NCBI RefSeq assembly: GCF_000025685.1
Contig: NC_013966.1
Location: 60,001 to 92,000 of the forward strand
Direction: 5' to 3'
Source: Haloferax volcanii DS2
GTDB taxonomy: Archaea > Halobacteriota > Halobacteria > Halobacteriales > Haloferacaceae
DNA: 32,000 nucleotides
Shown one piece after another: positions 4,502 to 18,957 of the stretch; positions within the stretch are counted from its first letter, which is position 1, and each line of letters starts with the position of its first letter. Position numbers and translations under genes: made by a program. The notes beneath the pieces were generated by a model. It was not told where the DNA came from and ran no database searches. It was given only the letters and a program-made list of their open reading frames with translations.

Positions 4502-4555
4502 TGGTGAGATTCCTGTGCGACCACGTTGAAGATGCCTCCCTCCGAACTCCTCGGT

Positions 4556-5242
4556 ATGTGTGGCCGGAACTCGCTCTTCATCGACCAAGCAGACCTTGAG
4601 GCCCGCTTCGAAGCCGAGGTCGTCGCGGACGGCGGGTACACCCCCCGATACAACATCGCGCCTGGCGACGACCTCCACATCATCACGAACGAGGCTTCCG
4701 ACGAGATCGACGCCTACCACTGGGGGCTGATTCCGTTCTGGGCGGATGAACCTGAGGAAGGCATCATCAATGCTCGCTCCGAGACTGCTGACGAGAAACG
4801 CGTCTTCGAGCGGGCGTGGGAATCACGTCCCTGCCTCGTCCCCTCGTCAGGGTTCTACGAATGGAAATCGCCGAACGGCGGGTCGAAGCAGCCCTACCGG
4901 ATTTACCGGGAGGACGACCCCGCATTCGCTATGGCCGGGCTCTGGGACGTCTGGGAGGGCGACGACGAGACGATCTCGTGCGTCACGATTCTCACGACGG
5001 AGCCGAACGACCTGATGAACTCAATCCACGACCGGATGCCGGTCGTCCTCCCGAAGGACGCTGAGTCCGACTGGCTCGCCGCAGACCCGGACACCCGCAA
5101 GGAACTGTGCCAGCCGTACCCGAAGGACGATCTGGACGCCTACGAGATTTCGACGCGGGTCAACAACCCCGGCAACGACGATCACCAGGTCATCGAGCCA
5201 CTGGACCACGAGCAATCGGGCCTCGGCGAGTTCAGTTCCTGA
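4556..5242 (+). CDS. SOS-response-associated peptidase (SRAP, YedK/HMCES family) abasic-site-processing protein
   Basis: The track ORF is 4526..5242. I place the start at ATG 4556 because the family hallmark is an N-terminal Met-Cys (MCGRNSLF...; Cys2 is the nucleophile). Also GFYEWK and HDRMPVVLP. Confidence 0.9.
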   Translation: MCGRNSLFIDQADLEARFEAEVVADGGYTPRYNIAPGDDLHIITNEASDEIDAYHWGLIPFWADEPEEGIINARSETADEKRVFERAWESRPCLVPSSGFYEWKSPNGGSKQPYRIYREDDPAFAMAGLWDVWEGDDETISCVTILTTEPNDLMNSIHDRMPVVLPKDAESDWLAADPDTRKELCQPYPKDDLDAYEISTRVNNPGNDDHQVIEPLDHEQSGLGEFSS

Positions 5243-5260
5243 TGGCTGACGGGGTCACCG

Positions 5261-6289
5261 TTACTGCATCGGCGACGCCGCCGCTGAATCGACGAGCGAG
5301 TACTCTCGGTCCCGACTCGTCCCTTCCGCCTCGAGGAGGTTGTACTGCTCCATTTTCGAGAGGTACGTGCGGATAGTCCGCTTCGTCCGCGGATCATCGA
5401 CGTCCTCGGTATAGCGCTCGTGAATCTCGCTCGGCCCGACTGGGCCGTGCTCGCGAACGATATCGTAGACGACCCGCTGATGGGGGGTAAGTGAATCGAG
5501 GCTCTTCTGCTTAATCTGGGCCCGAGCATCCTCGGCGGCGTCCAGGAGGATGTCGTCGGTGATGCGCTCGTGATTCTCGCGATCGGCCTTGCCGGCGGCC
5601 GTTCGGAGGATACCGATTGCGAGGCGGGCGTCGCCGGCGGCCGCGTCGGCGACCCGATAGAGCTGGTCGTCGGTGATGATGTCCTCGTCGAGTCCCCACT
5701 TCGCCCGCGCACTCAGGATGTCGTACAGTTGCTCGTCGTGGTACTTGTCCATCCGTACGTGCTCGCTGGAGCGTAGCCGACTCACGAGGCGATCATCGAC
5801 GCGGCCGAACAGCTCCTCTTCCTTGTTCGCGATGCAGATGATCGCGAACTGCGGGAGGCTGTGGAGGTCGTAGATGACGCTGGGGTCCTCCAGTTGGTCG
5901 ACTTCGTCGAGGATGACGACCGTTCGCGGACCGTCGTGTTGCTGAAGGCGGTCGACGAGTTCGTCGTGCGGCGTCGACTGCCGGTGGATGTCGATGGTCG
6001 CGCCGAGGTCGTCGAGGATCTGGTAGAGTGTCCGAAATCGGGTGTAGTTACGCCAGCAGTTGACGTAGGTGGCCTCGACGTCGAGGACCTCTTCGCGGAG
6101 CCGTTCGGTGACGAACTTCGAGATGCAGGTCTTGCCAGCGCCGCTGGGTCCGGTGACAATAGCGGTATCGGCGGGTTCACCGTTCGTGATGGGCTCGAGA
6201 ACGCTAGAGAGGTGGTTGACTTCGGCGTCGCGATGCTCAACTTCCCGAGGAACGAACCCGGCGCGGAGAACGCGAGCATCGCGAATCAT
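5261..6289 (-). CDS. cdc6: Orc1/Cdc6 family replication initiator
   Basis: 342 aa. Walker A GPSGAGKT, Walker B VVILDEVDQL, and a C-terminal winged-helix region (LTPHQRVVYDIV...TIRTYLSKMEQYNLLE). ATG at 6289..6287. Confidence 0.95.
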   Translation of the reverse strand: MIRDARVLRAGFVPREVEHRDAEVNHLSSVLEPITNGEPADTAIVTGPSGAGKTCISKFVTERLREEVLDVEATYVNCWRNYTRFRTLYQILDDLGATIDIHRQSTPHDELVDRLQQHDGPRTVVILDEVDQLEDPSVIYDLHSLPQFAIICIANKEEELFGRVDDRLVSRLRSSEHVRMDKYHDEQLYDILSARAKWGLDEDIITDDQLYRVADAAAGDARLAIGILRTAAGKADRENHERITDDILLDAAEDARAQIKQKSLDSLTPHQRVVYDIVREHGPVGPSEIHERYTEDVDDPRTKRTIRTYLSKMEQYNLLEAEGTSRDREYSLVDSAAASPMQ

Positions 6290-6481: not shown

Positions 6482-6730
6482 TCAGGATACAGAGCCGTCA
6501 TCTTCGTTGATGGGGGGCCGGAGATCGCGCCATCGAAAATCTGCGGTTTCTCCAGAGGTGAGAGAGACTCGATAGAGGTGCTCGTCCCGTTCATCACCAG
6601 TCACCGCTTCAGCATCGTCAGTCAGTATTGTAACAATGTGACCGTGTACTCCATGATACTGCTCGTGGTCAGGATCTGTCTCGTCTGGAATATCAATCCG
6701 GACACGGTCCCCTTTCGAGAAGCGCTGCAT
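6482..6730 (-). CDS. small acidic hypothetical protein (possible SH3/KOW-like barrel)
   Basis: 82-aa ORF, ATG at 6730. It starts MQRFSKGDRVRIDIPDE... and is highly acidic, like the genuine proteins of this replicon. No catalytic motif. Confidence 0.55.
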   Translation of the reverse strand: MQRFSKGDRVRIDIPDETDPDHEQYHGVHGHIVTILTDDAEAVTGDERDEHLYRVSLTSGETADFRWRDLRPPINEDDGSVS

Positions 6731-6828: not shown

Positions 6829-6854
6829 ATCCTCGTGTGTTGGATTTCGATAAT

Positions 6855-9800
6855 ATGGTTGCTACTTCGTCTGAGGATATTGAAGACCTAATCGACCGAT
6901 ACCGTGACAAACACGACTGGGAGCGAGACAAAGCTCACGTTCAGAATACTTCTAAGGTAATCCGTCAATTGGTACAGGCCATCGTCGAGACGGGATCTGT
7001 CGACGAGTACGCCATGCGCACAGTGTACAACCTGTGCCAGAACGATGACGCTCTCCAACCAGAGAACAAGAAGGAACGAATTGACAATCTCGACATCGAT
7101 TCCACCGCGAAGTCCGAGATTAAGGAGCGGATTGATGAAGGGACAGGTATCGTTGGGAAAGGAACATACTCGGTGCCAATTGAAGGCCATGAGGAAGAGG
7201 CATTTAACCTCCTTTCAACCGCGATCAGGTCCGATAATCGTGATGAGATTGACCCCGCGATAGAAGAATTCGCCAACCTCGAAATTGAAGGGATACAAAA
7301 CGGAATTATCTCCCCAATCCTCTACTTCCTCCATCCAACAAAATACCCGATCAGTAACCACCGCTCACGAACGGGTATGCAGAAGTTCTTTGGCTATGAG
7401 ATGTCCGGTCGACTCACTTCTTATCTAACTGAGGTCGAGAAATTCCATGAAGTTCGTGCGGACTATCCGTTCAAAAACGACTTTCGACATCTGGATAGCT
7501 TCTTCAATTGGGTTGAGGAACAGGAATCGGTCTTAGGTGAGCAATCTACGAAGCCAGTCGCAGAGATATCTGATGATGCCAATCTCTATTGGGTGAATCA
7601 ACATAACCCACCAGAAATCGAGGAAGAGTATCTCAGAGCCAAGACTGACGGACTTTGGCATCACAATTTAGATAAGTTATCCATCGGTGACGTGGTCTTC
7701 CATAACTTCGATAACGAACTGATAGGCATTTCGACCGTTATCGAGAATGCCGAGACGTACACATCCCGAGATGAAGAATACTATCGGGTTGAGGTTGATC
7801 TACGCTCGTTTGGAGAACCAGTACCTGTTGACGACGACTTGAAAAAGAGGCTCGGACAGGATCAATATCGGACTGAAAAGTACTACTCCATCGATAAGAA
7901 CGGTAACCTCAATGAAGCCTATCTGGCGAACCTATCCCGATCTGCAGCGGAGTTTCTCCTGAGTCAGGTAGACTCAATTGAGGAGTCTGAAACCCCTGTG
8001 GAAACTTCAGGATCTCCAAGAAGGATCTGGCAAATCACCCCCGCGAGAGGCGGCGAATATTGGGGTACGTGGATGCAACATGGAATTGCGTCCATCGGAT
8101 ACGGACTCGATCATAAGGTGACGAACGATGTAGCGGACATCGACGATGTCGATGAGCTGTCTGATGGAGAACTCGTCGAAATCGCCGCGGAGGCCGGCGA
8201 CAACCATGGTCGTGGTATGGCATACCGCTTCCAGTACGAAATCGACGAGGGCGATGTGATAATCGCCAAACAGGGACGTACCTCAGAATCCGATATTATC
8301 TATGGGATCGGTATCGTTACGGCTGCCCACCGTGAGAAGAGCTATCCTGAAATCAACCATTCAGACGTCGTCAGCGTTGACTGGAAGGTGACTTTTGGGG
8401 AAAGTGGGGTGGATATTGATGTTGGTAGTGATTCCGATTCGATCAAGACGTACACACTAGATACCCTTGATCCAGAGTACTACCGCGACCTCACGTCAGA
8501 ACTCGCCGACAAAGGAGATGTAGATCGCGACGAACTCCTTGCCCTCGTCTTTGATGAGCTATCTCAGGATGATGAGGGTGAAACGACGGACGAAGGCACG
8601 AACCATTACTGGATTTCAGCGAATCCTTCGATTTGGAAAGTCGAAAGCATCGAAGACGGTGATGAGGTTTTCTATACGGCGTATAATCGAAAGGGGAACA
8701 AACGTCGAATCTTTGGAGCGTTTGAGGAGGCGTCTCCTGGTGACAAGGTGCTGTTCTATGAGTCCCAGCCCGTCCAAGCCATCGTGGCAGAAGGAACAAT
8801 TCGGGAAGGGCTCCACAAAGATGAACACGAAGAGTACGATGAACCGGTCGACGGAATCACTATTGAGTACAGCCGAGCTATGGAAACTATATCGTGGGAT
8901 CAGCTTACCGCAGTCCCGGATCTGGAGGATGCCTCTCCAATCAGAAACCGAGCACAAGGAAGCCTCTTCCCCCTTACCGAAGACGAGTTCGAAACCATCC
9001 TCGCACTAGAGGATCCGATTGAAGACGGTGTCTCACAGGACGCCATTAATCAACTCAAAACAAAACTCACTTCTCCGGAGGTCGATGTCTCGATTCCCAA
9101 CAGTCTCTACTTCGATGATGCTGACCGACTTCGACGCGAGATCGAAGCTTCACTCCGGTCTGGAAAGCACCTCATCTTTACCGGACCACCGGGCACCGGG
9201 AAGACAAAACTAGCAAAGGCAATCTGTGAATCCGCTACGACCCACGAGCAAGTCGACGATTACAGGTTCACGACTGCGACCTCTGAATGGACTGCGTTTG
9301 ATACGATTGGTGGATATGTTCCTTCTACGGGCGACGGTGGACAGGAACTCCTGTTCGAACCCCGGCTTTTCCTCAAGTGTTTCCGGCAAGACCGAGTCGT
9401 CAACGAGTGGCTCATCATCGACGAAATCAATCGATCAGACATCGACAAAGCCTTCGGACAGCTCTTTTCCGTTCTGTCTGGCGATTCAACCGAACTCCCA
9501 TACGAACGCGATCGAACCGTCGAACTTCGCTCACTTTCCAATTCAACAACTGACGAAGAGCTCGCCGAAATTATTGGGAACCCAGACGCCTTCCCGGTTA
9601 CCCCTTCGTGGCGGCTAATTGCTACAATGAACACGTACGACAAAACCTCGCTGTACGAAATGTCGTACGCATTTATGCGCCGTTTCAACTTCGTCCACGT
9701 CGGCGTTCCACCGCTCACCACCGATGACGGGGTCCGAACCTCACTCCTCGATCCAGACGGGACTGACAATTACGCGACTGCGTGGCTCGCCGATGATGAG

Positions 9801-10151
9801 TCTCTCCGACCAATTCTCGCAGACGTGTACCCTGTCGTAGCAGTTCTGTGGCAACGTATCAATGAACATCGCGTCATCGGTCCCTCTATCGTGTACGATA
9901 TCATCCGGTATCTCGGCTCATACGATGACGCCGGCGGATCACGGAAAGACGCGCTCACGTCCGCTGTCGTTTCCCTCGTCTACCCGCAATTGGAGGGTAT
10001 GAGACCAGAACAGCAGAAACAATTGATTCGGTCACTCACCGATCAGAACGTCGCTACCGAAAACGGACCTGTAACACTTGATCTTGACAAGTCGTTACTC
10101 CAGCAAAAAGCGGCTGACTTCTTCGGTATCACGTTCGACGATGACGCATAG
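6855..10151 (+). CDS. mcrB: McrB-family AAA+ GTPase with a long N-terminal extension: helical domain plus three PUA/EVE-like modules
   Basis: Walker A GPPGTGKT (9183-9206). Walker B/McrB box LIIDEINRSDIDKAFGQLF (9411-). McrB signature ATMNTYDKTSLYEMSYAFMRRF (9627-). Three modules of YW/IW...GD-hydrophobic-strand type at ~7581-7826, ~8022-8396 and ~8601-8996. Confidence 0.9.
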   Translation: MVATSSEDIEDLIDRYRDKHDWERDKAHVQNTSKVIRQLVQAIVETGSVDEYAMRTVYNLCQNDDALQPENKKERIDNLDIDSTAKSEIKERIDEGTGIVGKGTYSVPIEGHEEEAFNLLSTAIRSDNRDEIDPAIEEFANLEIEGIQNGIISPILYFLHPTKYPISNHRSRTGMQKFFGYEMSGRLTSYLTEVEKFHEVRADYPFKNDFRHLDSFFNWVEEQESVLGEQSTKPVAEISDDANLYWVNQHNPPEIEEEYLRAKTDGLWHHNLDKLSIGDVVFHNFDNELIGISTVIENAETYTSRDEEYYRVEVDLRSFGEPVPVDDDLKKRLGQDQYRTEKYYSIDKNGNLNEAYLANLSRSAAEFLLSQVDSIEESETPVETSGSPRRIWQITPARGGEYWGTWMQHGIASIGYGLDHKVTNDVADIDDVDELSDGELVEIAAEAGDNHGRGMAYRFQYEIDEGDVIIAKQGRTSESDIIYGIGIVTAAHREKSYPEINHSDVVSVDWKVTFGESGVDIDVGSDSDSIKTYTLDTLDPEYYRDLTSELADKGDVDRDELLALVFDELSQDDEGETTDEGTNHYWISANPSIWKVESIEDGDEVFYTAYNRKGNKRRIFGAFEEASPGDKVLFYESQPVQAIVAEGTIREGLHKDEHEEYDEPVDGITIEYSRAMETISWDQLTAVPDLEDASPIRNRAQGSLFPLTEDEFETILALEDPIEDGVSQDAINQLKTKLTSPEVDVSIPNSLYFDDADRLRREIEASLRSGKHLIFTGPPGTGKTKLAKAICESATTHEQVDDYRFTTATSEWTAFDTIGGYVPSTGDGGQELLFEPRLFLKCFRQDRVVNEWLIIDEINRSDIDKAFGQLFSVLSGDSTELPYERDRTVELRSLSNSTTDEELAEIIGNPDAFPVTPSWRLIATMNTYDKTSLYEMSYAFMRRFNFVHVGVPPLTTDDGVRTSLLDPDGTDNYATAWLADDESLRPILADVYPVVAVLWQRINEHRVIGPSIVYDIIRYLGSYDDAGGSRKDALTSAVVSLVYPQLEGMRPEQQKQLIRSLTDQNVATENGPVTLDLDKSLLQQKAADFFGITFDDDA

Positions 10152-11505
10152 TCTCGCCGTAGAGGAACTCGTTAACGCCACCAGCGAAGAGCTGGGTACG
10201 TACTTGCGAAGCGGCGCGCTGAACACAAACGCACTCACGCGCTCACTCGATTACGAAGGCCTCGATATTGAGGACTGGGAGCGTATCAAACGCATCCATT
10301 TCTGTCTCGCTGACGACGTCCACGACTTCATCAGCGCCCTTTCTGACCGCGTTCGACGCATTAAGACCGAACATCAACGTGAAAACATCCATACGCAAGG
10401 GGAAGTCCGTGGGTCGATCAACTGGAGCGCTACACTCCGGACCCGCTCCGAATCCGGCTACGCAGATCGTAGCCGCTTCGTCTGCAACACCCCCTATACA
10501 GAATACGATATTGCAGAAAACCGCGTCTTGAAACGTCTCCTGTGGCAAATCCACCGCACAGTTACAGACGAACTCCAGAGCGTTGAGTACGATTGGCGGC
10601 AGGAATTCTGGACCGATGACCAGCTCGCCAGCTTCGACCGGCTGTACAAACAGAATGTCCACCTGAGCCGCATCAAAGAGGGCCCGGCAATCTCCGTTTC
10701 CGGACAGGACATGACCACTGCTCGCCAGTCACGCCTCCCGCTCTACACCGAAGCCTACGACCTCTACGATATGTTCCAACGCCTTCAAGCCGACACGCTC
10801 GACGCAGATATCACGGAACTCCTGGCAGACACACTCGTTGTTCCGACAGACACACCAACTCTCTTCGAACTCTTCTGTTGCTTCCGCCTTATCCGAACAC
10901 TCACCCGATTCACTCCTGGTTTCGTCCTCAAACCAATCGACGGAGAAAGTAACGCACTCGCGCACCTCGAATCAGACGACACTCGCATCGAAATCCACCA
11001 TGACAGTACCGGTAGTCTCAGTTTCCACGAACCACTCGATACAACACACCGTCCGGTACACGCACAGTATGCACGATATCACGACGCTCTCATCGACTAC
11101 AGTGACACGCTCGAAGCACTCACAGGTGACCCAAGCGATCCAGTCCTATACAATGGCCGTCCCGACATCATCATCGAAATCTACGACACCACATCCGACG
11201 AAAGACTCGACTCCGTACTCCTCGGTGAAATAAAACACTCCGATGCGACACAGACCTTCAAACAAGGTCTCGAAGAGCTTCTCACTTACCGACGTTTCGC
11301 CAGTAAGGACAATTACCTCATCGACAAACCGGACATCACACTCACCAGCCTTCTGATCACCAACGGCGTTACTACATCTGGAACCAGCGACGAAGTTATC
11401 CACCTCAACGGAACAGACCTCATCGACTCCCCCGCAACGCACTCCAAACATTTGGACTGGATTCACTCACTTTCTGGATTGCCCGCGACTCCAAGCCGGG
11501 CATAG
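10141..11505 (+). CDS. mcrC: McrC-like PD-(D/E)xK nuclease partner
   Basis: ATG 10141 (MTHSLAVEEL...) overlaps the McrB-like stop (10149-10151) by 11 nt. C-terminal nuclease motif RPDIIIEIY...LLGEIKHSD (about 11158-11238). ENRVLKRLLWQI in the N-terminal half. Confidence 0.8.
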   Translation: MTHSLAVEELVNATSEELGTYLRSGALNTNALTRSLDYEGLDIEDWERIKRIHFCLADDVHDFISALSDRVRRIKTEHQRENIHTQGEVRGSINWSATLRTRSESGYADRSRFVCNTPYTEYDIAENRVLKRLLWQIHRTVTDELQSVEYDWRQEFWTDDQLASFDRLYKQNVHLSRIKEGPAISVSGQDMTTARQSRLPLYTEAYDLYDMFQRLQADTLDADITELLADTLVVPTDTPTLFELFCCFRLIRTLTRFTPGFVLKPIDGESNALAHLESDDTRIEIHHDSTGSLSFHEPLDTTHRPVHAQYARYHDALIDYSDTLEALTGDPSDPVLYNGRPDIIIEIYDTTSDERLDSVLLGEIKHSDATQTFKQGLEELLTYRRFASKDNYLIDKPDITLTSLLITNGVTTSGTSDEVIHLNGTDLIDSPATHSKHLDWIHSLSGLPATPSRA

Positions 11506-11947: not shown

Positions 11948-13384
11948 CTAGTTTAGTAGCGATCAAAGCCGAACTCACCTCGTTCAACCTGCTCACGTAA
12001 CCGATCTCTGTGTGGATTTGGATTTCGTGACGCCCACAGCAACAGCTCGTCCAAATCCGGCAGTTCGTAGCCCAGCTCAACCATGAGATACAGTTGGATC
12101 AGATGACCGTGGCGTTCCACGGCGAGCGAACAGCGACGCCGAGGGAGCCGCGACGCCGACGAGTCGGCGTCTGCGGCGGCTTCGCCCTCTCGCTGTCTTG
12201 CCTCAAGTGACCGCAACTCATCCACGATTACACGACTCATCATCAACGAAATTGCGGCCATGATGATCAGCGCCTCGATGATGTAGCCGTCGGTCGTCTT
12301 GATCTCGTCCAAGCCGAACCGCGACTTCAACTCCTTGAACAGCAGTTCGACCTCCCAGCGCGCCCGATAGAGCTGCGCGATATCGGGCGCGCTGTAGCTT
12401 TCTCTCGCCAGATTCGTCAGATACAGATGATACTCGTCGGTCTTCTCGTTACGTAGTCCGACCAGTCGAAACGTCCGGGTCGCGCTGGCGCCCGACCCTC
12501 GTTTGCGCTCGAACGAGAGCGTGATGCGGACGTCGATCTCCTGTCGCTGCAGGTCGTCGAGGACGGCCTGCAGCGACTCTCCTTCCAGCGGAATGCTGTT
12601 GCCTCGCCACGTTCGCAGTTCTTCGACAATCTCGAAGTTCGCGTCGTCTTTGACACGAGAGACGAACCAACCGTCGTTCTTGTCGATGCGGTCGAACAGC
12701 CAGAAGTCGTAAAAGCCCAAATCAAGGAGAATGAGGGCGTCAGCTACCCACTCGCCGGTGGGTAGCTGACTCCGTTCATGAGTCGTCCCATCGGTTGTCC
12801 GGAATCGTGTCGGGAGCCCAGTCGAGAGAGATTCGGTGAGGTGAAGTTTCAGTTCGGCTTGATGGTCGCCGGTTGCTGTGTAGATATCAGCGGCGTCCTG
12901 GTACAGCGAAACGATGGTTGCGTCAGCAATGAGGACGTCTCGAAAGCGTTCGAGACGGCCGTTCAAATCTTCTCGTCCGGTATCGAGATTCTCGATTGCG
13001 TCATCGAGAATCTCTCGAAGGAGTGCAACGAATCCTGGTTCGAACCAGTCGTGGAACGATGCGTAGGAGAGTTCGTCACAGTCAGCCATCTCGACGTAGC
13101 GTTCGAGAAATGCTTGGAGAGAGCGGTCTGAGCCAGCAGCGAAGCCAAACGAGAGTGTGTAGAACAGCGCAACGATGTCGAATTTCCGCTCTCGTTGGAC
13201 GAGATTCGTTGCGCGAGCGCGCTCGCGCAACTCATCAGAGGGAAACGCTCTTTGAATCCGGTCAACTATGACCGAATCCGGTGGGCTGTAGGTCATACTT
13301 CCCACCGGGTTTCTCAATCAGGTAGTTGCGACGATATCAAATCAACAGACAGCAACTGGATTCTTTGTTAAACTAGAACGGATG
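11940..13384 (-). mobile_element. IS4-family (ISH8-like) insertion sequence, copy A
   Basis: Perfect 11-bp terminal inverted repeat GTTCTAGTTTA (11945-11955 / complement 13369-13379). It extends outward imperfectly to CATGC / CATCC. Boundaries are uncertain by a few nt, and I found no flanking direct repeat. Confidence 0.8.
11953..13296 (-). CDS. IS4-family DDE transposase (ISH8 group)
   Basis: The track ORF starts at a TTG (13317). ATG 13296 (MTYSPPDSVIVDRIQRAF...) aligns with the N-terminus of the paralogue at 19038. Conserved DVLIADATIVSL, LDLGFYDF, YRARWEVELLFKELK. Confidence 0.9.
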   Translation of the reverse strand: MTYSPPDSVIVDRIQRAFPSDELRERARATNLVQRERKFDIVALFYTLSFGFAAGSDRSLQAFLERYVEMADCDELSYASFHDWFEPGFVALLREILDDAIENLDTGREDLNGRLERFRDVLIADATIVSLYQDAADIYTATGDHQAELKLHLTESLSTGLPTRFRTTDGTTHERSQLPTGEWVADALILLDLGFYDFWLFDRIDKNDGWFVSRVKDDANFEIVEELRTWRGNSIPLEGESLQAVLDDLQRQEIDVRITLSFERKRGSGASATRTFRLVGLRNEKTDEYHLYLTNLARESYSAPDIAQLYRARWEVELLFKELKSRFGLDEIKTTDGYIIEALIIMAAISLMMSRVIVDELRSLEARQREGEAAADADSSASRLPRRRCSLAVERHGHLIQLYLMVELGYELPDLDELLLWASRNPNPHRDRLREQVERGEFGFDRY

Positions 13385-15701
13385 GTCCGACCCCTAGTAC
13401 GTCGGTTGCAAACAGGATGTCAATCTCTTCGCCGGGGGTGACATCGGCTTCTTGGGCTTCTGGAGCGAATCGCTCAACGATCCTCTCATCGTACCCACTG
13501 CCCCCGTGAACAAATCCGACAGTAGGGTTACTCGGATCCTGACCAAGCGTAGCAACGTTGGTGTGCGCTGGATTCTCGCCAGTTAGTTGCTCGAAGAGGT
13601 GCGTGATCGTGGGTACGTACTGGCTGAATATGAGAACCTTCTCGTCCGATAGCTCTCGATCAATTAACCCACGCAGACGTTCCGCCTTAGCGTCTTTAGT
13701 GCGACCGTCTTCTTTAGTCTGGAGTGCGTTCTGTGCTTGCCGTTTTATACGGTCAAGTTCCTGAAGGTCCTCGTCAATATCTGCTACGATCTCGTCTCTT
13801 TTCGAGGGGCTGACTCTATTGAGGGCTTCTGCGACCTCCTCAAAGTCAATATCTTTGGCGAAGTCGTCTTCAAATGTATCCCGTATCTGTTCAACGGCGT
13901 CACTCCGGTTTTTCGCATCATCCAAGTCACCAGTAGCGATGTGACGTGTGATGCGCTCTCGTTCCATAAGACGTTCAACAGAAGTCTCGAACGCGGCAAG
14001 GCTGCTCTCAAGACGTTTGAGGAGATTGATGAGCATCAGAATGCTCGCATTCTGGTACTCAATGATTAGCTCCTCTTCCTCGTCCCCGTCAGCGTCATAC
14101 CGATCTGCGCTAACGTAGGGAATATTCAATCCAGAGTTCTCGGAGTCATCTGACCCGATGACTGTATCGACGATGTCACTATAGAGTTCGTCGAGACGAG
14201 GGTCGTCCGGTGTGATAAGACGCGGATTTCGATCAGGGACGCTAATCGCCCGGTCTCCAATGGTGACCTCCTCGTAATTTTCGAGGATGTACTTCCGGTC
14301 CCTCGAAATAATGACCTCCCGCATAATTGACTCAATGAGTTCTTCGAGGTCCGAAAGCCGACTCTGAGTGCCTGCAGATTTGTCCTCCTCGCTGGAGAGG
14401 CGGTCGTACTGTTTGAAAATCTCGCTCGGTGACAAACCCTTCAGCTCAATGTCGAAGTCGTCGTCGTCAGCAAACACCTTGATCAGATTGTCCACGTCTC
14501 GAACGGAGTTGTGGATCGGCGTCGCAGTGAGCATCACGAACTTCTTGCCCTTTCGACCGATTGACTGGAGTTTGTCGTAGCGCTGTGTTCCAGTATTTCG
14601 GAGGTTGTGGGCTTCGTCGACGAGAATCAAATCAACTCCGCGGAGCCGTTGAATCTCCTTTTCAGACAGACGGGAGAGTTTATTGAAACTCATAAAGGTC
14701 TTCTCAGCGGTTGTCGGAAATTCGCCGGTGTCCGCATCAAGGAGGTCCCGCATCCACATCCGTTCCAGTCGGTTGGGAGCGATGATGAGAACATCATCTC
14801 GGGAGCTTGTGTATTCCTGCACGAGTGGGGCACCGATGTACGACTTCCCCAAACCGACGCTGTCAGCTAATACGACGCCGTTGTATTTTTCGAGCGGGCG
14901 ACGCGCTGCTCTGAATGCGTCCTGCTGGAACGCTGTGAGTTGTTCTTCGTAATCGCCAGTGATGTCCTGGAGTAGGGTGCCCTCTCGGACGTCTCGGGAA
15001 AACTGCTCGACAATAAACCGCTTCGTCGCTTCGTACGGTGAAATCGTTTCCACCTCTGCGACCGATGTACCTCCCTCAGAGGTGTCCGGCAGGTTCTCTC
15101 CGAACTGCGACTCCTCTATCTCGGCAGACATCAGGTCCTTGTCGAATTCGCTGGCCTCCTCCCAGATTTCCTCGAACCACTCGCCGAGATACCGGATCGT
15201 GTTGTTGTCCTTCTTTTCGACGTTCAGTTCGACATTTCCGCGGAGACCGCTAGCGGAGAGGTTTGAAGAGCCGATAATCGCCCGGCCAAGATCCGGGGAA
15301 CCCGCCGGATGCTCGAAGAGATAGAGTTTTGGGTGGAAGCGACTGTCATCATACACTCGAACATCCACCTTTTCCTCCTGAATGAGCTCGTAAAGTCGAT
15401 TAATCCCCTCTTGGGCCTCGGCGCGGTCGTACTCCTCTAGGTCTTCAGCGAATCCGCGTTCAAGTTCGTCAATAGTGCGCTGGTCAGTGTCGGTCCCGAT
15501 GAGGATCTCAACGCGTTCGGTGCTTCGGAGATTCTCCTTCAGGAGGTCGAAACCACCGAGATAGAAGTAGCCAACGGCGATACGAACTGTCTCGGCTTCA
15601 GGCGCGAGAGCGTTCGCTCGCTTGGCGACATCATACTCGCGGTTGTCAAGGACGTCAGAGTAGTCGGACCAGTCCGGATTGCCTCCTTCGTCAGATCCCA
15701 T
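13368..15701 (-). CDS. PLD(HKD)-nuclease-domain / SNF2-family helicase fusion, 3'-truncated by IS copy A
   Basis: ATG 15701 (MGSDEGGNPDW...). HKD motif RFHPKLYLF...GSSNLS (about 15315-15341). Helicase motif I LADSVGLGKS, motif II LILVDEAHNL (14601-14630), motif III MLTATPIHNS. The protein ends in helicase motif V (ILFATDVLGVG), followed by about 5 IS-encoded codons and a stop. Motif VI is missing. Confidence 0.85.
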   Translation of the reverse strand: MGSDEGGNPDWSDYSDVLDNREYDVAKRANALAPEAETVRIAVGYFYLGGFDLLKENLRSTERVEILIGTDTDQRTIDELERGFAEDLEEYDRAEAQEGINRLYELIQEEKVDVRVYDDSRFHPKLYLFEHPAGSPDLGRAIIGSSNLSASGLRGNVELNVEKKDNNTIRYLGEWFEEIWEEASEFDKDLMSAEIEESQFGENLPDTSEGGTSVAEVETISPYEATKRFIVEQFSRDVREGTLLQDITGDYEEQLTAFQQDAFRAARRPLEKYNGVVLADSVGLGKSYIGAPLVQEYTSSRDDVLIIAPNRLERMWMRDLLDADTGEFPTTAEKTFMSFNKLSRLSEKEIQRLRGVDLILVDEAHNLRNTGTQRYDKLQSIGRKGKKFVMLTATPIHNSVRDVDNLIKVFADDDDFDIELKGLSPSEIFKQYDRLSSEEDKSAGTQSRLSDLEELIESIMREVIISRDRKYILENYEEVTIGDRAISVPDRNPRLITPDDPRLDELYSDIVDTVIGSDDSENSGLNIPYVSADRYDADGDEEEELIIEYQNASILMLINLLKRLESSLAAFETSVERLMERERITRHIATGDLDDAKNRSDAVEQIRDTFEDDFAKDIDFEEVAEALNRVSPSKRDEIVADIDEDLQELDRIKRQAQNALQTKEDGRTKDAKAERLRGLIDRELSDEKVLIFSQYVPTITHLFEQLTGENPAHTNVATLGQDPSNPTVGFVHGGSGYDERIVERFAPEAQEADVTPGEEIDILFATDVLGVGPSVLV

Positions 15702-18700
15702 TTTCGAGCCTCTCCAGATCAACTCCGTAGAGCTCTGCGACAGCCTCGTCAAGCTCTCGGTCTATCTCTTCGATGGCGTCCATATCGGGGTCGTCTAAAA
15801 CGTCGGGTCGCTTTTTCTGGATTTGAATCGCATCTTCCACCAACCCGACTATTTTCTCCTTCTCGTCGTCGTCCGGGATTTTGATCGGGAGACGACGCAC
15901 GTCCCGTGTCGATAGCCCGATTCGATTGAGGAAATTCTTAGCGATATATCCGGAGAAAGTGGAGTTGAGGATGGCCATCATATACTTCAGGTCAGCTTTC
16001 TCCTCGTCGATACTGAAGAAGACAAGATTTGTATTCGTAAACACAGATGGCTCAATCATCCGGCACTCCAGATTTCTGACACCACCTCCTTGCTTCGTTG
16101 CGATTCCCTGATTCAGGTAGTACTGGTCGTTCCGAGGAACTCCTTGATCCTTGAGCTTATCGACGTTATCGCGCGACCAGTCCACGAACTCGTCAGTCGG
16201 ACAGAAATAGAGATCACGACTTTTGCTTTCCCTTGTCACCTTCACGAAGGTCCGGTTAGCATCATTAGCAACGCCATGTAACTTCTCTTCCTCAGAGAGC
16301 TGACTGGCATCGTGTATAACCTTCTCTTCTTTGACCGTCTTGTAGAGTTTACTCCGGCTATAGGAATCTTCCTCCTCAATTCGTTTGGCCTTTTTTGTCC
16401 CCTCTAATACGTGGATAAAGTCCTTATTCGTTCTCATTGAGATACCCTGTCCACCGACAGTCAGCAGGCCGAAGGGGAGAATTTCTCCGGGACTTGTCTC
16501 TTGTATCAGGGATTCTACCTCTGGCAGACTTTTTTCAAGGTTTGATGTGTCTGCGATCTCATTTTGCCAGCGGTCGTAGACTGAATTAAACGGCGCGATG
16601 AATTCTCCGAATATCTCGGTGTTAAGCTCTGTTGGGGTAAAGAATGAGTTATTTATCGACTTTCTATAGAGTTCCCTATTCAACTGATAGATGGTGTGTT
16701 CCCCTAGATTTGATCGCTTGGTCTCATACGATACTTCTCCGATTGAGACAGAGTACGATTCATCGTAGTCAATAGGCGTCAACAATTGCGGATATGACTT
16801 AATATCGACATCATAGCTATCGTTGAGTCGTACTTCGTTCGACTTGTTGCCGGACTTACTCAGTGAGAATATTGCTGTCTCCACGGATGCATCAAAGGCA
16901 TCCGGGTTCACCCGAGTCAGTTCGTCCAACTCGTCAAGTAGAGTGGATCGAACGTCAGTTTTGTTTATTTGGGTGAAGAAGGTATCCGACATTATGTATG
17001 TGAATACTCCATCGCTATTGGCGAGCTCGTATCCACGGTGGACGAAAAATTGGAAAAGATCTGTTTTAGAGTAGTACCTGAACCCTTCTTTTTCCGAGTA
17101 GAAATCTCCAAGTTCGCCCTTGTATTCTGCTCCTTCCTGACCCTCGTACGGTGGGTTTCCAATGACGATATCAAAGCCACCGTCCAGAATCACCTCCGGG
17201 ATATTCGTAGTCCACGTAAAGGTAGAGTCCGCTGCTTCTGCCGCTTCAGTCATCCAGCCTCCCTTCTCTTTCACAGCTAACTGAGTTTCCAGTTCCGTTG
17301 TGAGCTTTTCCAACTGATCGCTAAGGCGGTCCTTATTCTTGCCGTGTGCAGTCTGGAACTCCTTCCGCGTCTTGTGAATTTCGTTTAGCGTACTATTGAG
17401 TCCGCCAGTTAGCGTCTCTTGGTAGGAACTAACGTCCACACGTGTCGGGTCGTATTCGCCGACGAGGCTATTCCCGACAAAGAACTTGAATCCAAGGTTT
17501 GGCAGGGCGAACTTCTGGTTGGCCTCAAGGAACTCCTCGTGACTCACATGCTTGAGATCCTGCATCAGGTGGAGCCAAACTCGAAATTTACACATTTCGA
17601 TGCCGGCAGCATCAATGTCGACACCGTAGAGAGTGTCTGCAATAAATTCCTTCTTGAGTTGGAATCGACTTCGGTCGTCGCCACGGCTGGAGTCCAGCGC
17701 CTCTGATACCGCGACAAGCTCCTCCAGCATAGCGATAATGAACGCACCGCTACCTACCGCTGGGTCTAATACGGTCGCGGAACGGAGTGCCTCGTCGATG
17801 GCCTCAATCTGGCTGTCAGAGAGGGACTCAGGTGTAGTGTGATCGGTTACTAGCGATACCGCCTCCTCGTTTGTGATGTCCGTCTGCCCCAGCAAGTGCT
17901 GCTTAAGAGCATTTTTTGTCATATAGGAGGTAATCGGCTTCGGTGTGTAGAATGCACCCAGATCAGCGCGGTCGTCCTTCTGCATAAACATCTCAAAGAT
18001 GCGCCCGATGAACTCTGGGTCAACAACGAGTTCCTGCTCGCTTGGGTTCGACTCGCGCAGGGAGATCTTGTATCGTCGGAGGAGCCCCTCTGGGTTACCG
18101 GAGCTGTTCTTTTCTGGGCTGAGGAGTTTATCGAAGAATACCTCGTCGATTTCGACATTCTTCTCTATGTCCTTGCGCTCAAAGAGTCCGCCGTTGAGGA
18201 AGGGTATTCGACCGAGTGTGTCGGACTCAGTCGTCCCTTCCTCTGAGAGTGCTTCGAAGAACAACGGCTCGAAGAAATCTTCGTAGACGTGCATATCAGG
18301 ATCTTCGGCCACCTCTTCGTACTTGTTCTCGACGTAGTCCACATCCCCGTCAAGCCACTTCTTCTCCTCAATAAACAGCAAGAATAGGACTCGATTGACG
18401 ACCGTTCGCGTGTATGCATTGAGGTTCTCCTCCGGATCCTTTAAGCCGTGAATCGCATCCTGAAGATCCTCGCGGAATATCTCCCCGAAATCCTGGTAGA
18501 AGCTCCGCGTGATCTCCCGAATGGAGAAGACTTCCTCAACATCGCCTTCGAGACTCGCTCGACCCTGTCCAGAGTCCACGGAGAGGTCGTCAAGATAGTC
18601 GAGATACGCAGGTTCGACGCCGAATCGTTTGACCGTGAAGTAGTTGAGATCGAAGGTCACCTCAACGTCTTCTGAAGAGAACTGCTCCTCAATATGAAGG

Positions 18701-18957
18701 AACGTAATATCATCGTTCAGGGGGCTGGTCAGTGGTCCCTCGTCAGATTTTCTATATGCAATGACAGTGAATAGTTCGTTGATGGGGCTCCCGTGTCGTT
18801 TCAAGTGTCGCTTCAGATCGCTAAACGCGGGGCTATCCCCAGATGCTTCGAGTTCGATGTATCGAATGATGCCGTCACCATTCTCATCAACTAAGTGTGC
18901 TTCGTACCAATCGTTCCCTCCTTGGTTGCGCTTTATCCCACTAGGGATCTCGACCAT
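15691..18957 (-). CDS. large gamma-class N6-adenine DNA methyltransferase (Eco57I / PglX / DrmMI-like)
   Basis: 1088 aa. AFYTPKPI, motif I VLDPAVGSGAFI (about 17741-17772), motif IV DIVIGNPPY (NPPY at 17146-17157). N-terminal helical region NRVLFLLFIEEKKWL. Its TGA (15693..15691) overlaps the helicase ATG (15701) by 11 nt. Confidence 0.9.
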   Translation of the reverse strand: MVEIPSGIKRNQGGNDWYEAHLVDENGDGIIRYIELEASGDSPAFSDLKRHLKRHGSPINELFTVIAYRKSDEGPLTSPLNDDITFLHIEEQFSSEDVEVTFDLNYFTVKRFGVEPAYLDYLDDLSVDSGQGRASLEGDVEEVFSIREITRSFYQDFGEIFREDLQDAIHGLKDPEENLNAYTRTVVNRVLFLLFIEEKKWLDGDVDYVENKYEEVAEDPDMHVYEDFFEPLFFEALSEEGTTESDTLGRIPFLNGGLFERKDIEKNVEIDEVFFDKLLSPEKNSSGNPEGLLRRYKISLRESNPSEQELVVDPEFIGRIFEMFMQKDDRADLGAFYTPKPITSYMTKNALKQHLLGQTDITNEEAVSLVTDHTTPESLSDSQIEAIDEALRSATVLDPAVGSGAFIIAMLEELVAVSEALDSSRGDDRSRFQLKKEFIADTLYGVDIDAAGIEMCKFRVWLHLMQDLKHVSHEEFLEANQKFALPNLGFKFFVGNSLVGEYDPTRVDVSSYQETLTGGLNSTLNEIHKTRKEFQTAHGKNKDRLSDQLEKLTTELETQLAVKEKGGWMTEAAEAADSTFTWTTNIPEVILDGGFDIVIGNPPYEGQEGAEYKGELGDFYSEKEGFRYYSKTDLFQFFVHRGYELANSDGVFTYIMSDTFFTQINKTDVRSTLLDELDELTRVNPDAFDASVETAIFSLSKSGNKSNEVRLNDSYDVDIKSYPQLLTPIDYDESYSVSIGEVSYETKRSNLGEHTIYQLNRELYRKSINNSFFTPTELNTEIFGEFIAPFNSVYDRWQNEIADTSNLEKSLPEVESLIQETSPGEILPFGLLTVGGQGISMRTNKDFIHVLEGTKKAKRIEEEDSYSRSKLYKTVKEEKVIHDASQLSEEEKLHGVANDANRTFVKVTRESKSRDLYFCPTDEFVDWSRDNVDKLKDQGVPRNDQYYLNQGIATKQGGGVRNLECRMIEPSVFTNTNLVFFSIDEEKADLKYMMAILNSTFSGYIAKNFLNRIGLSTRDVRRLPIKIPDDDEKEKIVGLVEDAIQIQKKRPDVLDDPDMDAIEEIDRELDEAVAELYGVDLERLENGI

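What the first reader, a model, noticed from the sequence alone, without database searches (positions are those of the whole stretch)
6855..11505. McrBC-like module whose McrB homologue carries three tandem PUA/EVE-like reader modules
The C-terminal third is clearly McrB-like (GPPGTGKT, LIIDEINRSD..FGQLF, MNTYDKTS...FMRRF). The overlapping downstream gene has a PD-(D/E)xK motif (RPDIII...GEIKH), as McrC does. The N-terminal ~780 aa are unusual. A helical domain (ILYFLHPTKYPI) is followed by three separate modules with the YW/IW...GD + beta-strand pattern of PUA/EVE/ASCH-type modified-base readers (~7581-7826, ~8022-8396, ~8601-8996). Single reader domains fused to McrB are established, but three in one polypeptide is an architecture I do not recognise. 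It could broaden or combine modification specificities. The region is much lower in GC than its flanks.
Basis: partly seen in the sequence, partly recalled or inferred. Interest (0 to 1): 0.75.

Follow-up and report, generated by a model that had tools for sequence, protein, structure and literature searches.

The report
McrBC-like restriction system, three readers
A haloarchaeal plasmid-type defence gene pair encodes a McrB-like motor carrying three different modified-base 'reader' domains in a row plus a nuclease partner; the readers behave as swappable cassettes, a barely described way for a restriction system to change or widen which foreign DNA it attacks.

Summary
Window 6855-10151 encodes a 1098-aa McrB-like AAA+ protein. 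It overlaps by 11 nt a 454-aa partner (10141-11505) with a conserved PD-(D/E)xK motif.

The N-terminal two thirds are a helical domain of unknown kind, then three PUA-like modules:
- Module 1 is homologous to the 5mC/5hmC-flipping EVE domain of VcaM4I (profile E 9e-8; model pLDDT 91; Foldseek E 1e-9, TM 0.76).
- Module 2 belongs to Pfam PF28530. A moderate model (pLDDT 72) hits only EVE/YTH structures. Elsewhere the domain is fused to HNH and PD-(D/E)xK nucleases.
- Module 3 is a Pfam EVE domain (E 6e-10).

The modules are not recent duplicates. They belong to three families that come and go independently among relatives. Two proteins 96% identical differ only by a clean 202-aa module-2 indel. 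All three are under purifying selection.

The exact order m1-m2-m3 is a single 50%-identity cluster, known from three haloarchaeal genera. Two-, three- and four-reader arrays recur throughout this McrB clade.

Best reading: a type IV, modification-dependent restriction system whose reader array widens or tunes target range. It is a new variant of a known kind. The McrC assignment and the motor's nucleotide preference remain weakly supported.

The parts
6855..10151 (+). McrB-like gene (1098 aa from ATG 6855; the ORF opens at GTG 6837). Residue numbers in this report count from 6837.
6855..7571 (+). helN: conserved N-terminal helical domain of unknown function (motif GIISPILYFLHPTKYPISN)
   Evidence: Behaves as an independent module. 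No Pfam or PDB hit.
7572..8000 (+). Reader 1 (aa 246-388): VcaM4I-type EVE/PUA-like domain
   Evidence: Profile vs PDB 6yex E 9e-8. AF2 pLDDT 91.4. Foldseek 6yex E 1e-9, TMq 0.76. Equivalents of VcaM4I E15, Q128 and Y130 are conserved.
8010..8591 (+). Reader 2 (core aa 392-553, helical tail to 585): PF28530-family PUA-like domain. The cassette defined by the P0006/P0009 indel corresponds to about 7974-8564.
   Evidence: Precomputed PF28530 tracks this module. AF2 pLDDT 72.4. Foldseek top 50 are all EVE/YTH. HNH and PDDEXK fusions. Cassette indel.
8592..9041 (+). Reader 3 (aa 586-735): EVE domain (Pfam match aa 591-723 = nt 8607-9005)
   Evidence: Pfam PF01878 E 5.7e-10, 39.8 bits against a cut-off of 23
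9042..10151 (+). Linker plus McrB-type AAA+ NTPase. Walker A GPPGTGKT 9183-9206; Walker B region LIIDEINR 9411-9434; consensus loop MNTYDKT 9627-9647; RRF aa 948-950.
10141..11505 (+). McrC-like partner (454 aa). GRPD at 11155-11166 and E-x-K at 11227-11235 (PD-(D/E)xK).
   Evidence: A partner ORF is found downstream in about 70 of 80 loci, usually overlapping or within a few nt. Invariant motif. Weak McrC, DUF2357 and McrBC hits.

Best explanation
This is a two-gene, modification-dependent (type IV) restriction system of the McrBC kind, carried on haloarchaeal plasmid-borne defence islands.

Shown:
- The first protein joins an N-terminal helical domain and three different PUA-like domains to a McrB-type AAA+ NTPase.
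- The translationally coupled second protein carries a PD-(D/E)xK nuclease motif.
- The three reader-like domains belong to three separate families, are each under purifying selection, and are gained, lost and reordered as cassettes among close relatives.

Inferred from EcoKMcrBC, TgMcrBC and VcaM4I:
- The motor forms a hexamer, so up to 18 reader domains hang from one ring on flexible acidic linkers.
- Each reader flips a modified base into a pocket. For module 1, the VcaM4I residues that hydrogen-bond and stack the flipped 5mC/5hmC are conserved.
- Binding loads the motor on foreign DNA, NTP hydrolysis drives translocation, and the McrC-like subunit cleaves.
- Because the readers are of different families, the array most likely acts as an OR gate: one motor-nuclease chassis covers several kinds of modified viral DNA. 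Cassette exchange retargets it quickly.
For: - Motor motifs and homology to McrB structures.
- Reader 3 is a Pfam EVE domain.
- Reader 1 is homologous to the VcaM4I EVE domain by profile and by a high-confidence model. VcaM4I flips 5mC/5hmC into a pocket (PMC7897488). The E15, Q128 and Y130 equivalents are invariant or conservatively kept in module 1.
- Reader 2 has a PUA-like fold and is fused elsewhere to HNH_2 and YhcG PD-(D/E)xK nucleases and to canonical McrB.
- The modules occur independently, and there is a clean cassette indel.
- Constraint: modules are 73-94% identical among orthologues against 29-71% for the module 1-2 linker and 44-78% for module 2's helical tail; pN/pS is 0.03-0.34.
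- The partner gene is conserved and coupled, with invariant GRPD...ExK.
- Defence-island context: next to BREX on the Halorarius plasmid, and next to IS elements plus PLD-SNF2 and methyltransferase genes here.
- Precedent for a two-reader type IV enzyme with dual substrates: ScoMcrA, SBD-SRA-HNH (PMC7461809, PMC6224610).
Against: - No biochemical data exist for any family member.
- The partner is not linked to solved McrC structures by HMM or hhalign. Family hits are weak (E 1e-3 to 8e-3).
- The motor deviates from canonical McrB: Lys instead of an aromatic after the P-loop, and MNTYDKT instead of MNT[A/S]D[R/K]S. GTP use is therefore not assured.
- Module 2's model is of moderate confidence and its structural matches are marginal (TM 0.35-0.5).
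- The equivalent of VcaM4I W82 cannot be placed with confidence in module 1, because there is an indel in that loop.
- OR-gate logic is an inference. Avidity or AND logic is equally compatible with the sequence data.
Confidence: 0.6

Rival explanations
1. Avidity or AND-gate reader array. The three readers do not widen specificity. They cooperate, so that only densely or multiply modified DNA (for example fully substituted viral genomes) is bound tightly enough to trigger cleavage. This would spare the host's own sparsely methylated DNA.
For: All three modules are retained under purifying selection in the same polypeptide. Same-family repeats exist in relatives (m3+m3, m2+m2, m3x3), which fits multivalency better than new specificities. 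Each hexamer would carry 18 readers (inference from McrB hexamer structures hit).
Against: The three modules here come from three different families with under 20% mutual identity. Functional-looking relatives exist with any one or two of them, so no module depends on the others.
Confidence: 0.2
2. One or two of the PUA-like modules are not base readers. They serve as regulatory or auto-inhibitory elements (as the EVE domain plus linker gate the nuclease in VcaM4I) or as generic DNA- or protein-binding spacers. Only one module would determine specificity.
For: In VcaM4I the EVE domain and linker block the catalytic domain (PMC7897488). Module 2's fold assignment is only moderate. Pocket conservation could be checked only for module 1.
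Against: Module 2 alone is fused to HNH and PD-(D/E)xK nucleases and to McrB in other organisms, where it is the only candidate specificity domain. Modules 1 and 3 each occur as the sole reader in relatives.
Confidence: 0.12
3. RNA-directed system. EVE, YTH and PUA domains often bind modified RNA, so the array could recognise modified RNAs (tRNA, rRNA or viral transcripts) and act as an abortive-infection or RNA-surveillance system, as proposed for CoCoNuT McrBC relatives.
For: The structural neighbours of modules 1 and 2 include many m6A-RNA-binding YTH domains. Bell et al. 2024 predict RNA targeting for one McrBC branch (PMC11090510).
Against: The motor has the NxxD loop, not the NxD loop of CoCoNuTs. 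There are no coiled-coils, HEPN or other RNase partners. The partner carries a PD-(D/E)xK motif. Module 1's closest relative is a DNA 5mC/5hmC reader.
Confidence: 0.05

Closest known systems
EVE-McrB fusion systems (Bell, Wolf & Koonin 2020, PMC7641849; McrBC census, Bell et al. 2024, PMC11090510)
   Same: An EVE-superfamily reader fused N-terminally to a McrB-like NTPase, with a McrC-like gene downstream. Described as the commonest EVE defence architecture, 'with additional domains often present'.
   Different: Here there are three PUA-like readers of three families in one chain, plus an unknown helical domain. The text I could search names no multi-reader arrays or cassette exchange. The motor is a variant subclade.
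EcoKMcrBC (E. coli K-12)
   Same: Two overlapping genes. AAA+ motor with Walker A, Walker B, NxxD loop and RRF. A nuclease partner with a PD-(D/E)xK motif.
   Different: The E. coli reader is a single DUF3578/ADAM domain. The window motor scores 31 bits against the 637-bit NCBIfam equivalog cut-off, has Lys rather than Phe after the P-loop, and has a longer insert before the NxxD loop. The partner shows no detectable similarity to E. coli McrC by hhalign.
Thermococcus gammatolerans McrBC (PDB 6ut3-6ut8)
   Same: An archaeal McrB with a PUA-superfamily (YTH-like) N-terminal reader. The motor is detectably homologous (E 2e-7).
   Different: A single reader reported to prefer m6A (as cited), and a canonical aromatic after the P-loop.
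VcaM4I EVE-HNH endonuclease (PDB 6YEX, PMC7897488)
   Same: Module 1 is homologous to its EVE domain and keeps the equivalents of E15, Q128 and Y130, which contact the flipped 5mC/5hmC.
   Different: VcaM4I is a single-chain reader-plus-HNH enzyme without a motor. Identity is only about 18-20%. The W82 equivalent is uncertain.
ScoMcrA (SBD-SRA-HNH)
   Same: A type IV enzyme that combines two different reader domains and acts on two kinds of modified DNA: phosphorothioate and 5mC/5hmC (PMC7461809, PMC6224610). It is a precedent for OR-type multi-reader logic.
   Different: Different reader folds (SBD, SRA), an HNH nuclease in the same chain, no AAA+ motor, and two readers rather than three.

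Membership tests
McrB-type AAA+ NTPase | Walker A (GxxGxGKT) and Walker B (hhhDE) of the AAA_5 branch | tested here: met
   GPPGTGKT aa 783-790 and LIIDEINR aa 859-866 align to E. coli and Tg McrB. Pfam AAA_5 gives E 6e-12, 46 bits against a cut-off of 22.
McrB-type AAA+ NTPase | [quoted passage not shown] | tested here: met
   MNTYDKT aa 931-937. The N and D are kept with NxxD spacing. The x positions differ from the published consensus (Y for A/S, T for S). The MNT[Y/L/F]DK[T/A] variant is typical of this subclade.
McrB-type AAA+ NTPase | Aromatic residue immediately after the P-loop that stacks on the nucleotide | tested here: not met
   GKT-K in the window. K or E throughout this subclade, against F or Y in canonical relatives.
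McrB-type AAA+ NTPase | Equivalog-level similarity to EcoKMcrB (NCBIfam PRK11331) | tested here: not met
   31.4 bits against a cut-off of 637. It is a homologue, not an orthologue.
McrB-type AAA+ NTPase | GTP-dependent hexamer stimulated by McrC | not testable with these tools
   Needs biochemistry. Nucleotide preference is uncertain given the P-loop-adjacent Lys.
McrC | Encoded immediately downstream of mcrB in one operon | tested here: met
   11-nt overlap here and in the RefSeq annotation of the Halorarius plasmid. A 420-490 aa partner ORF is found downstream in about 70 of 80 related loci, usually overlapping or within a few nt.
McrC | C-terminal PD-(D/E)xK nuclease | tested here: met
   At motif level only. 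G339-R-P-D342 and E363-x-K365 are invariant in 13- and about 70-sequence alignments. PDDEXK_9 hits 1 member weakly. No fold test was possible.
McrC | N-terminal DUF2357 domain that inserts into the McrB ring; Pfam McrBC/DUF2357 or NCBIfam McrC at threshold | tested here: inconclusive
   The window protein has no Pfam family. NCBIfam McrC gives E 0.007, 15 bits against a cut-off of 338, over aa 66-144. Among 13 homologues: McrBC in 2, DUF2357 in 1, NCBIfam McrC in 3. No hit to PDB McrC or to E. coli McrC by hhalign.
EVE domain (PF01878) / PUA-like superfamily | Module 3: Pfam EVE at the gathering threshold | tested here: met
   39.8 bits against 23, E 5.7e-10, aa 591-723 covering profile positions 2-144 of 145.
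EVE domain (PF01878) / PUA-like superfamily | Module 1: homology and fold match to a solved EVE domain | tested here: met
   Not detected by Pfam EVE. Profile vs 6yex (VcaM4I EVE) gives E 9e-8 over aa 2-147. The AF2 model has pLDDT 91 and pTM 0.86. Foldseek vs 6yex gives E 1e-9, TMq 0.76; next come YTHDF2 and 1zce.
EVE domain (PF01878) / PUA-like superfamily | Module 1: conserved flipped-base pocket (VcaM4I E15, W82, Q128, Y130) | tested here: inconclusive
   The E15 equivalent is invariant. Y130 corresponds to the invariant Y of '(Q/E)AYL'. Q128 corresponds to Q or E. W82 falls in an indel region, with a conserved 'YY' 4-5 residues away.
EVE domain (PF01878) / PUA-like superfamily | Module 2: PUA-like barrel | tested here: inconclusive
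EVE domain (PF01878) / PUA-like superfamily | Binding of a modified base in DNA | not testable with these tools
   Needs EMSA or structures with modified oligonucleotides.

The most novel reading that the evidence does not exclude
These haloarchaeal (and some other archaeal and bacterial) McrB proteins form a combinatorial 'reader-array' system. Independent PUA-like cassettes of at least three families, including the uncharacterised PF28530 family, are inserted, deleted and reordered on a common motor-nuclease chassis. Each cassette contributes its own modified-base specificity, so one enzyme restricts several classes of hypermodified viral DNA, and lineages retarget by cassette swapping. Module 2 (PF28530) would then be a new reader family, possibly for a modification not covered by known readers.
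Probability: 0.35. Interest if true: 0.7.

Novelty: new variant of a known kind. Interest (0 to 1): 0.55.

Why it matters
Type IV restriction enzymes are the main defence against viruses that hypermodify their DNA, and they are a source of tools for mapping epigenetic marks. Known McrBC systems carry one reader.

A natural chassis that carries two to four readers from different families, exchanged as clean cassettes, would show how such systems widen or switch target range without re-evolving the motor or nuclease. It would also give an experimental handle on reader logic (OR, AND or avidity).

It flags PF28530 and the VcaM4I-like module as candidate new modified-base binders that work at high salt. 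It also shows that standard annotation ('AAA family ATPase', a single EVE) hides this architecture.

Tried and rejected
- Recent tandem duplication of one reader: rejected. Pairwise BLAST among modules gives nothing (best E 0.034 over 24 aa). Profile-profile similarity is weak.
- Word-indexed homologue search with modules 1+2 returned only one fragment.
- The module-2 profile and the module-3 sequence against PDB sequences gave no useful hits.
- Linking the partner to McrC by sequence failed: profile vs PDB, hhalign vs E. coli McrC and Pfam on 10 more partners. Only sub-threshold family hits were found.
- helN identity: profile vs PDB (best hit a phage baseplate protein at E 0.02, not credible) and Pfam at E<=1 found nothing. 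The helix-hairpin-helix resemblance is only an impression.
- Pseudogene or relic reading: rejected. The ORFs are intact and of homologue length, and pN/pS is 0.03-0.34.
- CoCoNuT membership: rejected. The loop is NxxD, not NxD, and there are no coiled-coils or HEPN partners.
- Literature search for an explicit description of multi-EVE McrB found none in the held library. That is not proof of absence.
Full report
**What is in the sequence**

Window 6837-10151 (+) is one uninterrupted ORF. The ATG at 6855 is the start used by RefSeq for the 95.8%-identical gene on the Halorarius halobius plasmid and by the closest database proteins, so the gene is 6855-10151 (1098 aa). Residue numbers below count from 6837. 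A second gene starts at ATG 10141 and ends at 11505 (454 aa). It overlaps the first by 11 nt (ATGACGCATAG). The proteins are strongly acidic (D+E about 20%), and every close relative is haloarchaeal.

**The motor**

Residues 736-1104 are a McrB-type AAA+ domain.
- Pfam AAA_5 gives E 6e-12.
- phmmer hits E. coli McrB (6hz4, E 1e-7) and T. gammatolerans McrB (6ut3, E 2e-7). GPPGTGKT, IIDEINRSD..FGQLF, MNTYD and MRRF all align.
- The loop is NxxD, not the NxD of the CoCoNuT branch.

Two departures from the canonical definition given by Bui et al. 2026 are clear. The consensus loop is MNTYDKT rather than MNT[A/S]D[R/K]S. The residue after the P-loop is Lys rather than the nucleotide-stacking aromatic.

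Across about 300 related sequences these traits define a subclade (MNT[Y/L/F]DK[T/A] with K or E after the P-loop), distinct from canonical MNTADRS with F or Y. It is a homologue of McrB, not an orthologue (31 bits against the 637-bit NCBIfam cut-off). Its nucleotide preference is open.

**The three reader modules**

Searching the window's own segments against 57 homologues showed that five pieces behave as independent evolutionary units: helN (7-245), mod1 (246-392), mod2 (393-585), mod3 (586-735) and the motor.

- *Module 3* is a Pfam EVE domain above the gathering threshold (39.8 vs 23 bits, E 5.7e-10).
- *Module 1* is invisible to Pfam, but a 19-sequence profile hits PDB 6yex residues 2-147 at E 9e-8. 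6YEX is VcaM4I, an EVE-HNH modification-dependent endonuclease. Its EVE domain flips 5mC/5hmC into a pocket made by P24, W82 and Y130, with E15 hydrogen-bonding N4 and Q128 intercalating (PMC7897488). The AlphaFold2 model of module 1 is confident (pLDDT 91.4, pTM 0.86). Foldseek puts VcaM4I first (E 1e-9, TMq 0.76), followed by YTH and EVE structures. In the alignment, module 1's invariant Glu matches E15, and '(Q/E)AYL' matches Q128-A-Y130 with the Tyr invariant. W82 lies next to an indel and cannot be placed.
- *Module 2* coincides with the precomputed Pfam family PF28530, which is absent from the local Pfam copy. Its model is moderate (pLDDT 72.4, pTM 0.73). All 50 best PDB matches are EVE/YTH-type PUA-like domains (MJECL36, PH1033, Mmi1, YTHDC1, 2eve), but the scores are marginal (E 6e-4 to 5e-2, TM 0.35-0.5). 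BFVD gives a Myoviridae protein (E 2.6e-7) and weak EVE, ASCH and DUF3850 hits. Independent support comes from context. The same domain is fused to HNH_2 and to YhcG-type PD-(D/E)xK nucleases, and to canonical McrB proteins that sources call '5-methylcytosine-specific restriction protein B'. That is the classic reader-plus-nuclease layout.

I therefore accept 'three PUA-like readers'. Confidence is high for modules 1 and 3 and moderate for module 2.

**Duplication or acquisition?**

- The modules share no pairwise similarity (best E 0.034 over 24 aa).
- Profile-profile alignments are weak but topologically consistent. Module 1 vs module 3 aligns over 130 columns from the 'YW' strand, through the 'GD' hairpin, to the 'Q.(Y/S)L' end (E 0.003). 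Module 2 vs module 3 gives E 1.3e-4.

They are ancient relatives within one superfamily, not recent copies.

Architectures among relatives are combinatorial. Forms seen include helN+motor, helN+m3, helN+m1, helN+m1+m3, helN+X+m1+m3, m2+m3, helN+m2+m1, helN+m2+m1+m3, m1+m3+m3, m2+m3+m3, m3x3, m2+m2+m3 and m2+m2+m1+m3.

Most tellingly, P0006 (full architecture) and P0009 are 96% identical over 901 residues. They differ by a single clean 202-aa indel that is exactly module 2 plus its helical tail. The window equivalent is about nt 7974-8564. The modules are cassettes.

**Constraint**

| Region | Identity among nine orthologues |
|---|---|
| Module 1 | 75-90% |
| Module 2 core | 73-89% |
| Module 3 | 75-94% |
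| Motor | 63-96% |
| Module 1-2 linker | 29-71% |
| Module 2 helical tail | 44-78% |

Crude pN/pS against the Halosegnis and Halorarius genes is 0.03-0.34 for each module. None looks like a decaying relic.

**How common is it?**

An exhaustive HMMER search of 1.84 billion cluster representatives with the three-reader region found 696 clusters at E<=1e-3. Only one (P0004) covers all three modules in one stretch.

Among species-representative genomes, the same protein occurs at 97% identity on plasmids of Halosegnis rubeus and Halorarius halobius. Halomarina ordinaria has a 93% copy.

Multi-reader arrays as such are recurrent:
- m2+m3+motor is the commonest form among the top 150 clusters (52).
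- About nine clusters carry three or four readers.
- Such arrays occur in haloarchaea, Thermoplasmata, Thermococci, DPANN archaea and some halophilic or other bacteria.

Pfam's EVE model sees only one EVE in each of these, and RefSeq calls the pair 'AAA family ATPase | hypothetical protein'.

The two census papers establish EVE-McrB as the commonest EVE defence fusion 'with additional domains often present', and they note inserts in GTPase domains. I found no explicit description of tandem reader arrays or cassette exchange.

**The partner**

A 420-490 aa ORF was found downstream of the motor gene in about 70 of 80 loci, usually overlapping it or within a few nt. Its family has invariant G-R-P-D and E-x-K about 20 residues apart, plus conserved N-terminal blocks.

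Sequence links to McrC are weak:
- NCBIfam McrC gives E 0.007 over residues 66-144 of the window protein. It also hits 3 of 13 homologues.
- Pfam McrBC hits 2 of 13, and DUF2357 hits 1 of 13.
- There is no hit to solved McrC and none to E. coli McrC by hhalign.

'McrC-like' is therefore supported by synteny, coupling, size and motif, not by a passed family test.

**Context**

To the left lie SRAP and Orc1/Cdc6 genes at 62-63% GC. The pair itself is 51.6% GC (GC3 0.55-0.62 against 0.80).

To the right lie an IS4-type transposase, a PLD-SNF2 ORF that appears cut off beside the IS, an Eco57I/MmeI-type methyltransferase, and another transposase. GC stays low to about 29 kb.

On the Halorarius plasmid the same Cdc6 - small ORF - pair block abuts a BREX system instead. 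The pair moves between defence islands as a unit.

**Mechanism**

Shown: the domain composition, the cassette behaviour, the constraint, the coupling to a nuclease-motif partner, and the defence-island context.

Inferred from EcoKMcrBC, TgMcrBC and VcaM4I: a hexameric motor, base flipping into reader pockets, NTP-driven translocation, and cleavage by the partner.

The evidence is that the modules come from different families, and that each occurs as the sole reader in some relatives, with motor and partner retained. ScoMcrA (SBD-SRA-HNH) is a characterised two-reader precedent. Avidity or AND logic, regulatory roles for some modules, and RNA targeting remain possible, in decreasing order of likelihood.

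**Verdict**

It is a new variant of a known kind: EVE-McrB type IV restriction. The value lies less in this one protein than in the combinatorial reader-cassette family it exposes, and in two poorly characterised reader families (PF28530 and the VcaM4I-like module).

Noticed in passing
P0056, P0059, P0062 (proteins): In some bacterial canonical McrB homologues the EVE domain is inserted inside the AAA+ domain, between Walker A (GPPGTGKTY) and the 'VTFHPSYTYEDF' segment, with a PF28530/module-2 domain at the N-terminus. This is a reader inside the motor rather than in front of it.
   Followed up: partly
P0006 vs P0009; window equivalent about 7974-8564: Two metagenomic proteins 96% identical over 901 residues differ by one clean 202-aa indel that is exactly module 2 plus its helical tail. 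This is a recent cassette gain or loss.
   Followed up: yes
P0079; L049:7001-9604 and L051 (Halorubrum sp. HHNYT27, Haloferax sp. Q22); P0082: Relatives with four readers (m2+m2+m1+m3), with tandem divergent EVE copies (m1+m3+m3, preceded by an N-terminus that looks m2-like by eye), or with three EVE copies (m3x3).
   Followed up: partly
window 6855-7571 (helN): A conserved helical N-terminal domain (motif GIISPILYFLHPTKYPISN) is present even in reader-less relatives and in some bacterial homologues. A similar motif recurs by eye in the ~200-aa insert of P0012-type proteins and in alternative N-termini. No Pfam or PDB match; function unknown.
   Followed up: partly
window 13368-15752 (-) and 11953-13317 (-): The PLD + SNF2-family helicase ORF ends abruptly ('...ATDVLGVGPSVLV*') with no Helicase_C hit, directly beside an IS4-type DDE transposase. 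It was probably truncated by the insertion.
   Followed up: no
window 15691-18957 (-): A 1088-aa Eco57I/MmeI-type N6-adenine methyltransferase-like gene overlaps the start of the PLD-SNF2 gene. A modification-based system thus sits beside a modification-dependent one in the same island.
   Followed up: no
window 6482-6730 (-): An 82-aa ORF lies between the Orc1/Cdc6 gene and the McrB-like gene. An 82-aa hypothetical gene sits in the same position and orientation on the Halorarius halobius plasmid. Sequence identity between the two was not checked.
   Followed up: no
window 4526-6289: An SRAP (SOS-response-associated peptidase) gene and an Orc1/Cdc6 gene flank the island on the left at much higher GC3 (0.80-0.82). 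The Cdc6 gene travels with the McrBC-like pair on the Halorarius plasmid.
   Followed up: partly
precomputed Pfam columns: PF28530 (tracks module 2) and PF28529 (seen only on canonical-motor relatives) are newer Pfam families absent from the local Pfam copy. Their curated names could not be read.
   Followed up: no
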